A DNA stretch of 64,000 nt from a virus: IMG/VR virus record IMGVR_UViG_3300042473_001368; one strand, written 5' to 3'. The translations under genes and the position numbers were made by a program. The notes beneath the pieces are model-generated. The model was given only the letters and a program-made list of their open reading frames with translations, was not told the origin of the DNA and made no database searches. Positions 8,446-24,331 of this stretch are shown piece by piece (position 1 is the first letter of the stretch; each line of letters opens with the position of its first letter).

Positions 8446-8613
8446 ATGGCAAGCTCAGGAAAAGGTAAAGGCAGCGTAAAGACTGTTGAATGGTGGAAAC
8501 ATCTTCGTGATCGCAAACGCGCTCAAAATCGTTTGGTGCGAGAAGATGGCAAAGAACAGATTGAAACAGAATTAGAGGAAGCTGAAGAGGAGGGTGAAGA
8601 TGAAGAATATTAA
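8446..8613 (+). CDS. Small protein with basic N-terminus and acidic tail (55 aa)
   Basis: MASSGKGKGSVKTVEWWKHLRDRKR...EEEGEDEEY; stop overlaps next ATG. Confidence 0.55.
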   Translation: MASSGKGKGSVKTVEWWKHLRDRKRAQNRLVREDGKEQIETELEEAEEEGEDEEY

Positions 8614-9210
8614 ACACGAAGCGTATAATTTTATAAGTGTTGCGGTATGGGACGCAGCAGCACATAGTGTAGAGCATGCTGTTGATAATTATGTAAGCGG
8701 ACTTGCGTGGGGTAGTGCGTGGGACAGCATAAGCAATACTATATGGGCTATTGATGATAGTTCAAGAGATACTGTTAACAATACGATAGGCGCCTATGAA
8801 TATTGAAACTGAAATAAGTTACAATGTGTACTATTCAGTGCTGTTCTTGGTGCATAGCCCTGTGAGTGGCGCTGTGAATTGTTCTGTGGGTGTTTCTGTG
8901 TATAATACTGTGAGGGATGATGTGTGGAATTCAGTTAGTGATTCAGTTAGCAATGCAATAAAGGAATATGAATATTGAAACTATAACACATGCATCTTTT
9001 ACAGAAGAAATTACTGAATTATGGGATGATGTTTGGAATTCAGTAATTTTTAGGACAAATTATAATTTGAATCGCGATGTTGCACTTAATATACGCAATC
9101 GTGTAAGTGAATTTGAAATAAGCCTTAGAGACGCTGGTCAATCTGAAGCTGGCGCATATAGTGGTGCGATGCACCGCACTAGACTAATAACAACAACCAT
9201 TTTACAATAA
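8600..9210 (+). CDS. MNIE/EYEY chain 1: three overlapping small ORFs (8600..8806, 8796..8978, 8968..9210)
   Basis: 11-nt overlaps ATGAATATTGA; Ser/Val-rich. Confidence 0.75.
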
Positions 9211-9234
9211 CGAACTACAATATAATAAAAACAT

Positions 9235-9621
9235 ATGGGACTTGACATGTACTTAACTTCGCGCTCAGAAAATGAGCGCGCTAAAGCAAATGATTATGCC
9301 GATTGGGCAGTGCTCGCCTATTGGCGCAAATTCAATGCACTACACGCTTGGTTTGTGCGCAATGTGCAAGACGACGTAGATAACTGCGGCGATTATGTTG
9401 TGACACAATCTAAACTAAGTGAGCTTATAGGCGTTCTCAAGACGCTGCAGCAGACTCGCGATACAAGCTTGCTGCCAACACAAAGCGGCTTCTTTTTTGG
9501 AGATACTAATTACGACCAATGGTATTGGAGCAAGGTTGCCTCTGCTATTGATACACTATCTAAAATCTTAACAACCTTTGACTTTGAAAACGATGAACTT
9601 CTTTATACTTCAAGCTGGTAA
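9235..9621 (+). CDS. Conserved phage hypothetical protein (MGLDMY...YWRK..A.H.WF type)
   Basis: Recognisable motif; motif promoter at 9209. Confidence 0.75.
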   Translation: MGLDMYLTSRSENERAKANDYADWAVLAYWRKFNALHAWFVRNVQDDVDNCGDYVVTQSKLSELIGVLKTLQQTRDTSLLPTQSGFFFGDTNYDQWYWSKVASAIDTLSKILTTFDFENDELLYTSSW

Positions 9622-9628
9622 CCCTCCT

Positions 9629-9835
9629 ATGGACAATAAGATCGCTGCGATAATTTTTCTATGCAGTGCTGTATTGGTTGTAACACACATACTTTCCTAT
9701 GCAGCTGGTGCTAATGCTGAGAGTCCAGGCGGTGGTGATGCACCAATAATGCTGCCATTCGTATTGGTTATGGTTGCTACAATCGCATCAACATTATTCT
9801 CTCTTATTATTATCTTAACAAACATCTTATCTTAA
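9629..9835 (+). CDS. Two-TM membrane protein
   Basis: Two hydrophobic stretches. Confidence 0.55.
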   Translation: MDNKIAAIIFLCSAVLVVTHILSYAAGANAESPGGGDAPIMLPFVLVMVATIASTLFSLIIILTNILS

Positions 9836-9868
9836 AATAACTAAAAGGAACTACTGTATAATATAATT

Positions 9869-20627: not shown

Positions 20628-20660
20628 AGAGCCTATAGAAATATAGGCTCTTTTCTTTTT
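20628..20660 (+). terminator. Intrinsic terminator
   Basis: AGAGCCTATA-GAAA-TATAGGCTCT plus T-run. Confidence 0.85.
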
Positions 20661-20691
20661 AACGAACTAGTGTATAATATAATGAAGGGGT

Positions 20692-22867
20692 ATGTATAAT
20701 AAAATTGACAAGGTAGCAGAGATGATAGAATCTCCGCCATATTCTCAGGTGAGATCTTGTGTTTTTAGTTGCATAGATGGTGCTGTAAAACAGGATGCGT
20801 GGCATTATGTAGTTGCTAACACGCATAACGCAACATTCTCTGTAAGAGCTTCTGTTTACGAATCAATTAGGGAATATGAATATTGAAAAGAAAATAGATG
20901 TTTCAGTTTGGAGCTCAGTTTGGGGCTCAGTTTATAGCTCGGTTAATGGCTCAGTTAGGAGCTCAGTTTGGACCTCAGTTTGGACCTCAGTTGATAGCTC
21001 AGTTAATAACTCAGTTTATGACTCAGTTATTAACTCAGTTTGGGACTCAGTTTGGAGCTCAGTTGATAATACAATAAAGGAATATGAATATTGAAAAGGA
21101 ACTAAGGGATAATATTGCGAGATATGTAAATCATGCTGTGTATATTTCAGTATATAGTCGTATATACGACTCAGCGCCTGAAGTTGAAACAGATGTATAT
21201 TTTAGGGTACGACTTTCTGTAGGCGATATAGTGACGAGTTCGCTCAAGGGTAATACATCAACGCATATTGAAAACTATAGCTATAAGAAGTAAAATGAGC
21301 GCACCAGTAGAATATATTGTTGGGAACTGTACCTATGGTATTATTGATAATGTAGTATATAATCAAATAATAGTAATATGTGGAGACGCTATTGAGAGAG
21401 ATCCTTCTATTGTTATTTGGGAGGAGTTCTATAAAAGTGTGAACGACTCTACAAGTGGCAGTTTACGTAGAACTATTGCTACTAACATTATCAACTATGA
21501 ATATTAAAAATGAGGTATATGACGATGTATGTCTTAATGTAGATTACCCTTTGCGGGAAGAGCTAGGTGATTTTTTGTTAGGTTGTGTAAGCAGTGCCGC
21601 GTATAACTCTGCGTGGTATTCGTTGTGGGAGTCTTTACGAGATCCAACAATCAGTCCGCAGAGTTGTACCGATGATGTAGTAGGTGAATATGAATATTGA
21701 TAGCGAAATACACTATAATGTACGAGACACGGTAAGGTCTTCTGTAGGCCATGCACTTTGGGATTCTGTGAGCGATATTATTACTCTCCATGTTACATGC
21801 TCATTGAGTGCTCCTCTGAGGAATAAGGTTGATGATATTGTAAGCGTTGTAAGTGATACTGTATACACAGCAATATATGAAACAAATGAATATTGAAAAG
21901 GAAATATGGGAGAGAGCGTGCGAGGGCGAGTGGCATTCAGTATCTCAGACTGTGTGGAAAGCTACTCTTCGTAATAATCTAATGGCTAATTGTTTGGTGT
22001 CAGAAACTGTACGAAGTGTTGAGTATGCAGTGCGAGATTCTTTGCAGTCTTCTGTAGAGCAAGCTGTTGATAATACAATAAAGGAATATGGATATTGAAA
22101 AGGAAATAGATCGCTCAGTTGGTGTTACAGTTTTTGACTCAGTTAGTGTCTCAGTTTGGAGCTCGGTTTATAGCTCAGTTCATGGCTCAGTTTGGAACTC
22201 GGTTAGTAACTCAATTTATGGCTCAGTTGGCGTCTCAGTTTGGGACTCAGTTGATGATACAATAGCAGGATATGAATATTGAAAAGGAAATAGATGACTC
22301 AGTTTATGACTCAGTTTATGACTCAGTTTGCGACTCAGTTAGTGACTCAGTTGGTGCCTCAGTTCATGGCTCAGTTATTAACTCAGTTCGTAGCTCAGTT
22401 TGGGGCTCAGTTCATATCTCAGTTAGGAACTCAGTTGATAATACAATAAAGGAATATGAATATTGAAACGGAGATAAAAGAAATTACAAGAAATTCCGTG
22501 TTTATGAGTGTATATTGCAAGATACACTCGTGTGCTCATAGTAATATAGCTAAACAAGTTTTACAAGACACTTACATACTGAGTCAAAGGGTGTATGATA
22601 GCGCACGGGTAACTGCTATAAAAACCGAAGAACACAAAAACAATATAAATGAAAGATATTAACCTCATTGTAGACTTCCGTATATCTAGTAAAGAACACA
22701 TTGCAACATTAACTATAGCACGCTCTATAGAAAACGCTGTCGAGTATGGTGTATGGTCGAGTGCGTGGATAGGAGTAAAAGCACCTGTGCGTGATACTGT
22801 AGGCGAATTTTCGACTGTAATAGATCCATTTCTACGCCCTAGAGCTGTTAAAACCGTACAATTTTAG
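20692..22867 (+). CDS. MNIE/EYEY chain 3: eleven overlapping small ORFs (20692..20886, 20876..21094, 21084..21293, 21268..21507, 21497..21700, 21690..21896, 21886..22098, 22088..22282, 22272..22466, 22456..22662, 22649..22867)
   Basis: 11-nt overlaps at 8 junctions; headed by motif 20661. Confidence 0.8.
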
Positions 22868-23037
22868 TGTAAAAGATTGTAAAAATAACCAAAAGTTTTT
22901 ACAAAAGTTTTATGAAATAATGCGCATGAAGTTATAATAAGCCTATAAAGCTCAAAGGAAAAGGAAGATATATGGAAAGAGGAAATATAGAAATATAAGG
23001 AACCAGGATAAAATATATTGAATGAAGGGAGCGAAAT

Positions 23038-23652
23038 ATGGATATTGCAATAGAAATATTGTATCGTGAGTTCGAAAACAGCATTGAATGGCGTACCGGT
23101 ATATTCGAAAATTTAGAAAGAAATACAGAGCGTGAAATAATAAATTATGTGCAAAGCAATAGTTGGTATAATTCAGAAACATCACAACTCACACGAGATC
23201 TAAAAGAAAAAATATATGCCGCGTTTTGATAATGAAGAAGAATGGTTCAAAGCGTGGAGTACTTTGAATGGTGCATGCGCAGTTCAATTGCATAAGTGTA
23301 TTCATGACTCGATGACGCTCATGACGAGAAACAATATAAAAGTTAATGTGCAGAATACTGTAGGGAGAATTACGAATACTATAAAATATGGACACTCTGA
23401 GAAATACCAAGATTAACAACTATGGAACCGTTTAAAACACCTTACTTTGATTCACCATTTTACGCGTTGTACGATATCAATAACACTATGGAAAGAGAAA
23501 TATACGCTATCCTCGATACAAAGGTATCATTCATAGTGCGCTTAACAGTACTTGATAATGTTAGATTTATGCTATCACGTCCGCACGATAGCATTCATAA
23601 TAGTATACACGACGCTATGCACGAATACTTTAAAACCACCACGGCAAAATAA
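23038..23652 (+). CDS. Three small ORFs (23038..23229, 23216..23416, 23422..23652)
   Basis: Same size class; variant promoter AAGGAACC-N4-TAAAAT near 23006. Confidence 0.6.
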
Positions 23653-23711
23653 TTTACACGACGCGCTGAGAGCAACCTCGTGCTATAACGAACTATAATA
23701 TAACGAGTGAT

Positions 23712-24331
23712 ATGAAAGAACTATATGATTACTGTGGGTATACTATGTACGATACAATGAGCAAAAGCTTGCTTGAGAGTACTGGTAGCGCTGCGTGGTA
23801 TGATGTAAGAGATGATGTGTATACTTCTGTGCTAGATGTAATGCGACGCACTGTGGAGAATACTGTAGCAAGCGCGATTTATGAATATGAATATTGAAGG
23901 GCATTTATATGATATAACCCGGCGCAAAACCTATATCAATATAGTCGACCAGCTTTTCGATAAAATATCGAAACCTGTGTTTAGTAGAGTAACAGACGAC
24001 ACTTGGACGCAAGTAGAGATTCCAGTAGGTAACGTAGTATGGAGCCAGTTGTATGATAATATAGCAAGCACACTTTATGAATACAAGTACTGATATAAAG
24101 CAAATCTTAGTTGGTCCAAGCAGCGAGGTATGCGACGCAACATGGAACACCCTTTGCACCTCTTTGAATGTCGAGTCTCTCAAAAAGATTGGTAGTGCTT
24201 ACGAATCAAAAAAAGCGGTAATTGGCGGCGTAAATGCAGGGGTGGTTCGGGAGTTGGAAGGAATCCGGAGAATGGGTTTCAGTGTGGACGAGGTTATTGA
24301 TAACGAACCTCAGTATAATATAGGAGTATGA
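23712..24331 (+). CDS. MNIE/EYEY chain 4 (23712..23897, 23887..24093, 24077..24331)
   Basis: YEYEY-stop/MNIE and YEYKY-stop/MNTS junctions; motif 23687. Confidence 0.7.

What the first reader, a model, noticed from the sequence alone, without database searches (positions are those of the whole stretch)
8600..24331. Chains of ~25-30 small genes linked by a dual-coding junction (EYEY-stop / MNIE-start)
Seen: about 20 gene junctions share (GAA)TATGAATATTGA(A), which reads E-Y-E-Y-stop in one frame and M-N-I-E in the +1 frame (11-nt overlap). Four chains: 8.6-9.2, 17.0-19.1, 20.7-22.9 and 23.7-24.3 kb. Gene bodies are 60-80 aa, diverge strongly, and are often S/V/Y/W/D/N-rich helical patterns. 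Inference: the junction both couples translation and serves as a homologous crossover point, so whole genes can be added, lost or shuffled without breaking the chain. This would be an expandable repertoire of small effectors (e.g. anti-defence binders). I know of no named family for this architecture.
Basis: partly seen in the sequence, partly recalled or inferred. Interest (0 to 1): 0.9.

Follow-up and report, generated by a model that had tools for sequence, protein, structure and literature searches.

The report
Shuffled phage arrays of single-helix genes
An uncultured T4-like phage carries operons of about 28 tiny genes joined by an 11-base stop/start overlap; relatives differ by whole genes swapped at these joints, and the small helical proteins are predicted to dock onto one conserved phage protein of unknown function (DUF6745).

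Summary
TATGAATATTGA occurs 19 times (up to 1 mismatch), all on the + strand, against 1 expected. It marks 18 stop/start overlaps (..EYEY* over MNIE..) in four chains plus one singleton.

The genes are tandem paralogs. They encode acidic proteins of 60-72 aa, each predicted as one long alpha-helix, and many are built from 12-nt (xSVx) repeats.

Three relatives, 88-94% identical in the flanks, differ by gain, loss and replacement of whole cassettes. Identity collapses at the junction, so the recombination reading is supported as an outcome.

Translational coupling is plausible but not shown. Each of the three long chains has one promoter-like motif, at its head. The junctions have no usable Shine-Dalgarno site. 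A conserved 6-codon relay ORF links one member to an ordinary gene.

New here: the SV repeat is the module found fused inside DUF6745 (PF20530) proteins. The phage encodes a repeat-less DUF6745 protein (11480-12454) next to the arrays, as do four other lineages. A complex prediction passes its controls (0.88 against 0.00).

Junction form differs between lineages while both protein termini persist. The dual coding therefore looks like two conserved termini laid over each other.

The function is unknown. The scan's index lists this same stretch again from an overlapping window, but no note on other DNA.

The parts
6535..6726 (+). Six-codon relay ORF (MIEYEY*, 6535-6555) and a solitary family member (6547-6726). 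The relay ORF's start overlaps the stop of gene 6199-6537 and its stop overlaps the member's MNIE start.
   Evidence: The same arrangement is present in relative L006, where the upstream stop overlap has changed from TAATG to ATGA.
8600..9210 (+). Chain 1: three family genes (8600-8806, 8796-8978, 8968-9210) with two canonical junctions.
11480..12454 (+). Repeat-less DUF6745 protein (P0001, 324 aa), the predicted docking partner of the helix proteins. A promoter-like motif lies at 11454-11471.
   Evidence: Pfam PF20530. AF2 pLDDT 92. It aligns to both ends of the fused SV-DUF6745 proteins. Complex prediction 0.88 against 0.00. Promoter-like motif.
17010..17027 (+). Promoter-like motif AACGAACTAGCGTATAAT at the head of chain 2.
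17047..19089 (+). Chain 2: ten overlapping small genes. Gene 17852-18142 is not a family member. Canonical junctions lie at 17240, 17635, 18295, 18491, 18675 and 18859.
   Evidence: Orthology with L001 and L027. dN/dS 0.15-0.81.
18675..18869 (+). A member built from 11.8 copies of a 12-nt repeat (TATGGCTCAGTT). It is present only in the window among the three close relatives.
20625..20678 (+). Terminator-like hairpin (20625-20654) followed by a promoter-like motif (20661-20678) ahead of chain 3.
20692..22867 (+). Chain 3: eleven overlapping small genes with eight canonical junctions (20876-22456). The first and last family genes are orthologous in L001; the interior is turned over.
   Evidence: 12-nt repeats at 20903-21064, 22128-22252 and 22294-22436, and a 184-nt tandem unit at 22066-22476.
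22272..22466 (+). Representative SV-repeat member (64 aa), used for the structure prediction and the complex prediction.
   Evidence: One helix spanning residues 3-63, pLDDT 85. Complex prediction.
23687..24331 (+). Promoter-like motif (23687-23699) and chain 4: genes 23712-23897, 23887-24093 and 24077-24331. The junction at 23887 is canonical and the one at 24077 is a derived 17-nt overlap.

Best explanation
The window comes from an uncultured, distant T4-like phage. Its early or plastic region holds operons of tandemly duplicated genes.

The proteins. Each gene encodes an acidic protein of about 60-72 residues that folds as one long alpha-helix. Many are made of four-residue xSVx repeats, encoded by 12-nt DNA repeats. 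These proteins are the free-standing form of the repeat module that, in other phage-like contigs, is fused between the N-terminal and C-terminal parts of DUF6745 proteins. I infer that each helix docks, one at a time, onto the phage's single conserved repeat-less DUF6745 protein (11480-12454). In the model the conserved S/V stripe and both termini face the core, and the variable W/Y/H/D/N/G/R positions are exposed. That gives one core with a library of more than 20 exchangeable subunits.

The junction. In this lineage the conserved C-terminus (..EYEY-stop) is laid over the conserved N-terminus (MNIE..) of the next gene, which produces the 11-nt dual-coding joint. Two consequences follow:
1. 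Inferred: downstream genes in a chain have no promoter-like motif and no usable Shine-Dalgarno site, so they are probably translated by ribosomes that terminate and restart 8 nt upstream.
2. Shown by comparison: the joint and its shoulders of about 45 nt are the only homology shared by diverged cassettes. Recombination there has added, deleted and swapped whole genes in frame.

The biochemical function of the DUF6745-helix pair is unknown.
For: Phage identity. Gp23 capsid protein, ribonucleotide reductase and DNA ligase are present. The capsid protein is at most 33% identical to any isolate.

One family. The members align and are recovered by a profile. AF2 gives one helix, pLDDT 85. Isoelectric points are mostly 4.1-5.5.

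Real genes. dN/dS is 0.15-0.9 for collinear orthologs, against 0.07-0.17 for the three larger non-family genes measured.

Cassette turnover.
- Identity between the window and L001 falls from near 100% to random exactly after TATGAATATTGAAA. It returns as a 27-nt island at the next junction and again at the chain end.
- There is a one-cassette indel between the two ATGNATATTRA starts at 17047 and 17240.
- Inside chain 3 the window has 9 genes and L001 has 7, without 1:1 orthologs, while the end genes are orthologous.
- L027 is a mosaic of window-type and L001-type cassettes, with its own extra ones.
- All 4 internal homology-block ends between the window and L001 lie within 21 nt of a junction.

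Operon structure. AACGAAC-N5-TAYAAT occurs 39 times on the + strand against 0.13 expected. There is one per gene at 24-37 kb. It occurs only at the heads of the three long chains, at 17010, 20661 and 23687. Junction upstreams have weak or misplaced Shine-Dalgarno pairing.

DUF6745 link.
- The SV profile finds 3269 representatives.
- 16 of the 17 top hits of at least 373 aa that were tested hit PF20530, two of them just under the curated cut-off. The repeats lie between N- and C-terminal parts that align to P0001.
- A repeat-less DUF6745 gene lies beside SV-helix genes in L001, L017, L024 and L025.
- Complex prediction: score 0.88, best of 3 controls 0.00. That mark was reached by 58 of 80 solved complexes and 2 of 110 mismatched pairs. 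The runs agree in at least 91% of contacts and the partner's pLDDT is at least 84.
- All 11 non-contact residues of the helix's repeat region are variable x positions.
- 17 of the 27 invariant residues in P0001 1-200 lie in the interface, p=0.009.
Against:
- The complex score is the model's own confidence, used my own alignments, and may echo the intramolecular packing of the fused homologs. Only one helix was tested.
- Family members without SV repeats (for example 18295 and 21497) may not bind the same way.
- Chain 1 has no head promoter-like motif of its own.
- Recombination at the joint may be incidental rather than selected.
- The close 'strain' contigs (L002-L005, L009) are 99.9-100% identical to the window, so they show no ongoing variation.
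- One DUF6745-bearing relative (L026) has no SV gene within 10 kb.
Confidence: 0.6

Rival explanations
1. Ordinary tandem paralogs and nothing more. The joint is conserved only because both protein termini are constrained and the genes arose by unit-length duplication. Crossovers at the joint are a passive by-product, and the proteins act on their own, for example as acidic anti-defence or host-takeover factors, independently of DUF6745.
For: Other lineages keep the MN(I/L).. start and the ..Y-x-(Y/F)* end with different joints or with no overlap. The proteins are acidic and fast-evolving and lie in a plastic early region. Tandem units of 184 nt are present.
Against: It does not explain three observations:
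- The fusion of the same repeat inside DUF6745 proteins.
- The repeated adjacency of these genes to a repeat-less DUF6745 gene in five lineages.
- The complex prediction passing its controls.
Confidence: 0.25
2. Capsid-targeted internal proteins. The conserved MNIEKEI N-terminus would be a capsid-targeting sequence, like that of the T4 internal proteins IPI-IPIII. On this reading the arrays are a polymorphic set of proteins injected with the DNA.
For: The phage is T4-like. Hypervariable small genes share a conserved N-terminus of 7-8 residues that persists across lineages with different joints. From my own knowledge, not checked here: the T4 IP loci are polymorphic and share a conserved leader.
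Against: The N-terminus has no clear (L/I)-x-E prohead-protease site. The C-terminus is conserved as well. The predicted partner is a non-structural DUF6745 protein. There are no virion data.
Confidence: 0.07
3. Programmed +1 frameshifting or stop bypass at the joint fuses neighbouring cassettes into long SV-repeat polyproteins that resemble the repeat region of the fused DUF6745 proteins.
For: The next frame is +1 at every joint. Natural homologs have long continuous SV arrays.
Against: UAU UGA A offers no re-pairing for tRNA-Tyr in the +1 frame, and there is no conserved stimulator. Each downstream frame begins with its own conserved ATG. Other lineages separate the genes (L025) or use a Shine-Dalgarno site with ATGA (L018). 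No data support fusion products.
Confidence: 0.03

Closest known systems
[quoted passage not shown] 2010, PMC2839356; Comeau et al. 2014, PMC4122927)
   Same: The phage type is T4-like. Small non-essential genes in plastic regions are bounded by a short conserved sequence. Close relatives differ by insertion, deletion and replacement of whole genes, with breakpoints at that sequence.
   Different: A PeSL is an intergenic promoter plus terminator, so each cassette is its own transcription unit. Here the shared sequence is coding on both sides: it is a stop/start overlap inside a multi-gene operon with no promoter or hairpin. The cassettes are also paralogs of one protein family rather than unrelated ORFans. 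The same window does have a PeSL-like layout, one promoter-like motif per gene, at 24-37 kb.
DUF6745 (PF20530) proteins with an internal SV repeat array
   Same: They carry the same four-residue xSVx repeat (profile E down to 5e-50). They also carry the same N- and C-terminal parts as the window's P0001. Their contexts are phage-like.
   Different: In those proteins the repeat is 150-250 residues long and covalently inserted. Here it is split off as many separate genes of 60-72 aa, each with its own conserved termini, and the DUF6745 protein has no repeat. I found no paper that mentions DUF6745.
Translationally coupled overlapping genes (termination-reinitiation, for example ATGA or longer 3n+2 overlaps in bacterial and phage operons)
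   Same: The start codon lies a few bases upstream of the preceding stop, in the +1 frame, across a whole operon.
   Different: The same 11-nt overlap is repeated 18 times at nucleotide identity, which is unusual. Coupling itself is not demonstrated here.

Membership tests
DUF6745 (PF20530) protein family | Presence of the DUF6745 domain | tested here: not met
   The small proteins have no Pfam hit. Only P0001 (11480-12454) carries PF20530. The small proteins are therefore not members.
DUF6745 (PF20530) protein family | SV four-residue repeat module homologous to the one inserted in many DUF6745 proteins | tested here: met
   The profile of 25 small proteins hits fused proteins at E 5e-50 to 1e-30. 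Of the 17 tested hits of at least 373 aa, 16 hit PF20530.
PeSL-type modular shuffling cassettes | Cassette boundary is a sigma-70-like early promoter plus a stem-loop terminator | tested here: not met
   There is no promoter-like motif and no terminator-like hairpin at the junctions. Such motifs occur only at chain heads.
PeSL-type modular shuffling cassettes | Close relatives differ by indels or replacements whose breakpoints lie at the conserved boundary sequence | tested here: met
Translationally coupled (termination-reinitiation) operon | Stop/start overlap, with no independent ribosome-binding site for the downstream gene | tested here: met
   There are 18 overlaps of 11 nt. Any Shine-Dalgarno-like pairing upstream of junction ATGs is weak or ends 0-4 nt from the ATG.
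Translationally coupled (termination-reinitiation) operon | Downstream translation depends on upstream translation | not testable with these tools
   This needs reporter fusions or ribosome profiling.
T4 internal proteins with a capsid-targeting sequence | Conserved N-terminal leader ending in an (L/I)-x-E protease site, and presence of the protein in virions | tested here: inconclusive
   A conserved N-terminus exists. MNIEKEI contains no clear (L/I)-x-E site as judged by eye. Virion content cannot be tested here.
prfB-like programmed +1 frameshift site | A slippery codon that can re-pair in the +1 frame before a stop, with a Shine-Dalgarno-like stimulator 3 nt upstream | tested here: not met
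   The joint reads UAU UGA A. Any AAGGA lies 7-9 nt upstream of the UAU UGA site and is not conserved.

The most novel reading that the evidence does not exclude
A phage-encoded combinatorial system with one conserved DUF6745 core protein that accepts any one of more than 20 interchangeable single-helix subunits. Their exposed residues (rich in W, Y, H, D, N, G and R) would set the target specificity. The library would be renewed by 12-nt repeat slippage inside genes and by in-frame cassette exchange at a dual-coding joint. This would be a protein-level repertoire comparable in logic to exchangeable specificity subunits, but built from whole mini-genes.
Probability: 0.3. Interest if true: 0.85.

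Novelty: new variant of a known kind. Interest (0 to 1): 0.66.

Why it matters
The finding gives a concrete case, visible in sequence, of how a large phage keeps a fast-changing gene repertoire intact. Cassettes are exchanged at a coding joint, so every product stays in frame and inside the operon. This extends the PeSL idea of modular shuffling from intergenic regulatory cassettes to a coding stop/start overlap.

It also gives the first functional lead for DUF6745, a family found mostly in viruses with no literature. Its internal repeat can exist as separate, hypervariable partner proteins, and that can be tested directly by co-expression and structure determination.

If the one-core, many-adaptor reading holds, it would be a new way for phages to diversify a binding or effector activity.

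Tried and rejected
- Isolated phages (INPHARED). Nucleotide and protein searches with the arrays, the 497-aa gene, a family member and P0001 found no match. The lineage has no cultured relative in that collection.
- Pfam and PHROGs on ten small proteins gave nothing significant.
A two-junction DNA pattern search replaced it.
- No whole genome is held for this window.
- I considered that the xQLx family of a more distant phage (L018/L014) is the SV repeat read in another frame. I rejected this: its 12-nt unit is GACCAACTATGG, not ..CTCAGTT... The open +1 frame inside SV genes (xQFG) is a side effect of the repeat.
- Fold searches with the P0001 model gave nothing convincing. Foldseek against the PDB found nothing at E<=0.001. 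VIA-align wide gave a best Z of 4.4. The Atlas returned only DUF6745 clusters.
- No DUF6745 hit was found in records G001 and G003. These are fragments (10% and 24% complete), so the result is inconclusive.
- L026, a DUF6745-bearing relative, has no SV gene within 10 kb.
- Contigs L002-L005 and L009 are 99.9-100% identical to the window, so they say nothing about variation within a population.
- A literature search for DUF6745 found no papers.

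
Full report

Yes. TATGAATATTGA with up to 1 mismatch occurs 19 times, always on the + strand, against 1.03 expected; 0 of 100 shuffles reach 19. Eighteen of these are genuine gene joints. In each, an ATG lies 8 nt before the stop of the upstream ORF, so ..E-Y-E-Y-stop and M-N-I-E.. share 11 bases.

The joints form four chains:
- 8600-9210, 3 genes.
- 17047-19089, 10 genes.
- 20692-22867, 11 genes.
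- 23712-24331, 3 genes.

There is also a solitary member at 6547-6726, giving about 28 genes of 59-96 aa. A few joints are derived forms of the same sequence, with overlaps of 8, 14 and 17 nt at 17439, 22649 and 24077.

Conservation is sharply centred. Mean pairwise identity is 0.88 on the core and 0.46-0.62 on shoulders from about -22 to +25. It falls to about 0.33-0.35 in the bodies.

**2. What the window is.**

The window encodes a Gp23-type major capsid protein, both subunits of ribonucleotide reductase, an ATP-dependent ligase and a homing endonuclease. The capsid protein is at most 33% identical to that of any isolated phage, and the best hits are cyanomyophages. Neither DNA nor proteins of the array region match the isolate collection. 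It is therefore an uncultured, distant T4-like phage. The contig is about 190 kb, as given in the 'longest_contig' column.

**3. What the small genes are.**

They are paralogs. The consensus is MNIEKEI-(xSVx)n-..TIKEYEY, and a profile recovers 22 members in the window.

Four members are almost pure 12-nt tandem repeats with core CTCAGTT, and 22066-22476 is a 184-nt tandem unit.

AlphaFold2 with a 25-sequence alignment gives one uninterrupted helix spanning residues 3-63, mean pLDDT 85.

The proteins are acidic, mostly pI 4.1-5.5. The two variable positions of each repeat are dominated by D/G/S/N and by Y/W/H/S.

They behave as coding genes. Collinear orthologs in a relative have dN/dS of 0.15-0.9, against 0.07-0.17 for the three larger non-family genes measured. 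They are constrained but fast-evolving.

They have no Pfam or PHROG family.

**4. Comparison with relatives: the recombination claim.**

Metagenome searches returned 33 homologs and several contigs.
- L002-L005 and L009 are 99.9-100% identical to the window and are uninformative.
- L001 (a 132-kb contig) and L027 (7.2 kb) are 88-94% identical in the flanking genes but differ in the arrays.

In the alignment of window 18420-19130 with L001, identity is near-perfect up to and through TATGAATATTGAAA and then drops at once to random. It returns as a 27-nt island at the next joint, drops again, and returns at the end of the chain. The window has three cassettes there and L001 has two unrelated ones.

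Gene 17047-17250 is a one-cassette indel lying between two ATGNATATTRA starts.

In chain 3 the first and last family genes are orthologous at 67%. The interior holds 9 genes in the window and 7 in L001, without 1:1 orthologs.

L027 is a mosaic:
- It has window-type cassettes, orthologs of 18491, 18859, 21084, 21295 and 21497.
- It has L001-type cassettes, orthologs of L001 6900, 8891, 9437 and 9805.
- It has cassettes of its own.
- It lacks 18675 and 20876.

L006/L007 joins the orthologs of 17635-18142 to the ortholog of 21497.

All four internal block ends between the window and L001 lie within 21 nt of a joint. By a rough count, joint windows cover about 20% of the chains, so the chance probability is about 0.002.

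Another lineage (L017) has an 80-nt stretch that is identical between paralogs in two different arrays, which fits exchange between copies.

Whole genes have been added, lost and swapped at the joints. Whether the joint is selected for this, or is simply the only homology available, cannot be told from sequence.

**5. Transcription and translation.**

AACGAAC-N5-TA(T/C)AAT is strongly over-represented, at 39 copies on the + strand against 0.13 expected.
- At 24-37 kb there is about one copy per small gene.
- In the arrays it occurs only at the heads of the three long chains (17010, 20661 and 23687) and never inside a chain.
- Chain 1 has none of its own.
- A terminator-like hairpin precedes chain 3.

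Genes of this phage generally lack Shine-Dalgarno pairing. Mean duplex energy is -0.3 kcal/mol for 31 ordinary genes. In several of them a TATAAT ends 6-8 nt before the ATG, which hints at leaderless or near-leaderless mRNAs. At the joints, any AAGGA ends only 0-4 nt from the ATG and is not conserved.

Downstream genes of a chain therefore have neither a promoter-like motif nor a usable ribosome-binding site. Restart by terminating ribosomes is the most economical explanation. This is an inference.

One small supporting detail concerns the solitary member at 6547. It is linked to an ordinary gene by a six-codon ORF, MIEYEY-stop. In relative L006 this relay is kept although the upstream overlap has changed from TAATG to ATGA.

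**6. The joint is not universal, but the termini are.**
- In L024 (DUF6745 protein 58% identical) the family ends ..NYEFK* and starts MNLNNK, with a 14-nt overlap ATGAATTTAAATAA.
- In L025 (66% identical) the genes end ..KYKF* and the next starts MDIEK two bases later, with no overlap.
- In L018/L014 a related xQLx-repeat family starts MNIE but ends ..EEDL*, with GGAGGA and an ATGA overlap.

In L024, many other small genes with unrelated bodies share the MN.. start and the ..Y-x-(Y/F)* end. The simplest reading is that both protein termini are constrained, and that in the window's lineage they have been superimposed.

**7. The DUF6745 connection.**

A profile of 25 SV-type proteins, searched against 1.84 billion representatives, found 3269 hits. 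The best are proteins of 370-570 aa in which a long ..ASVRDSVWDSV.. array sits between an N-terminal segment and a C-terminal DUF6745 domain. Of the 17 hits of at least 373 aa that I tested, 16 hit PF20530, two of them just below the cut-off.

The window's 324-aa protein at 11480-12454 (P0001) is a DUF6745 protein without repeats. It aligns to both the N-terminal part (residues 5-42) and the C-terminal part (110-239) of the fused forms.

The same repeat-less gene lies beside SV-helix genes in L001, L017, L024 and L025. It carries the same promoter-like motif as the arrays. The fused forms also sit in phage-like contexts.

P0001 folds confidently, pLDDT 92, but has no solved structural relative. 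Atlas clusters of this fold are mostly viral, and one cyanobacterial cluster has the fold fused to leucine-rich repeats.

A complex prediction of P0001 with the helix 22272-22466 supports binding but does not show it:
- The score is 0.88 and the best of 3 controls is 0.00.
- That mark was reached by 58 of 80 solved complexes and 2 of 110 mismatched pairs.
- The runs agree in at least 91% of their contacts, and the partner's pLDDT is at least 84.

Caveats apply. My own alignments were used, only one helix was tested, and the model may be recalling the intramolecular packing of the fused relatives. In that case the result shows likeness rather than binding.

Two consistency checks point the same way:
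- All 11 helix residues in the repeat region that do not touch P0001 are variable x positions; none is S or V.
- 17 of the 27 invariant residues in P0001 1-200 fall in the predicted interface, hypergeometric p=0.009.

**8. Synthesis.**

Shown:
- The motif, the chains and the paralogy.
- The helix prediction.
- The cassette-level turnover with breakpoints at the joints.
- The promoter layout.
- The homology of the repeat to the insert of DUF6745 proteins.
- The gene neighbourhood.

Inferred:
- Translational coupling.
- Docking of the helices on P0001.
- A one-core, many-adaptor logic.

Unknown:
- The activity of DUF6745.
- The host.
- Whether the repertoire serves counter-defence.

The nearest described concept is PeSL-mediated modular shuffling in T4-type phages (PMC2839356, PMC4122927). 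This case differs because the shared sequence is a coding stop/start overlap inside an operon, and because the cassettes belong to one family.

I rate it a new variant of a known kind, with a more novel reading (30%) that it is a combinatorial subunit library for an uncharacterised phage protein.

The scan's index lists this same stretch again, read from an overlapping window. I saw no note of it on other DNA.

Noticed in passing
window 24302-37406 (and 890-13667): The promoter-like motif AACGAAC-N5-TA(T/C)AAT occurs 39 times, all on the + strand, against 0.13 expected. At 24-37 kb there is about one copy per small gene. This PeSL-like layout contrasts with the promoter-free chains.
   Followed up: partly
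window 12444-13595 (- strand): A free-standing HNH homing endonuclease (PHROG 559, E 6e-72) lies directly after the DUF6745 gene. The whole segment 12455-13690 is absent from relative L001, so it is a mobile insertion.
   Followed up: partly
window 15165-15788: A 207-aa protein with 63/66-nt repeats (..NQLTTLEG..) gives a weak LRR_4 hit (E 9e-5, below the cut-off). The gene is absent from L001. Atlas shows a cyanobacterial DUF6745 cluster fused to LRR domains, so this could be a second split-off repeat partner of the DUF6745 protein.
   Followed up: no
window-wide gene starts, e.g. 3865, 9235, 11480: Ordinary genes of this phage show essentially no Shine-Dalgarno pairing. In several, a TATAAT ends 6-8 nt before the ATG, which suggests leaderless or near-leaderless mRNAs and a host that does not rely on Shine-Dalgarno sites.
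   Followed up: partly
L018 1-9200 (IMG/VR contig, 40 kb) and L014: A more distant phage has arrays of a sister family, MNIE-(xQLx)n-EEDL*, built from a different 12-nt repeat (GACCAACTATGG). The genes are joined by GGAGGATTTATGA (a Shine-Dalgarno site plus a 4-nt overlap), and members lie on both strands.
   Followed up: partly
window 20898-21077 and similar; L017 12596-12919: The +1 frame through SV-repeat genes stays open and reads xQFG/xQLI repeats. Gene callers sometimes annotate it (for example P0005). It looks like a by-product of the repeat and not like a gene.
   Followed up: partly
window 7532-7631 and 8110-8209: A 100-nt direct repeat (87% identical) covers the starts of two neighbouring genes, which indicates another local duplication upstream of chain 1.
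   Followed up: no
L017 5812-5891 and 11279-11358: An 80-nt block is 100% identical between two otherwise diverged SV genes in different arrays of the same phage. This is consistent with recent gene conversion between paralogs.
   Followed up: no
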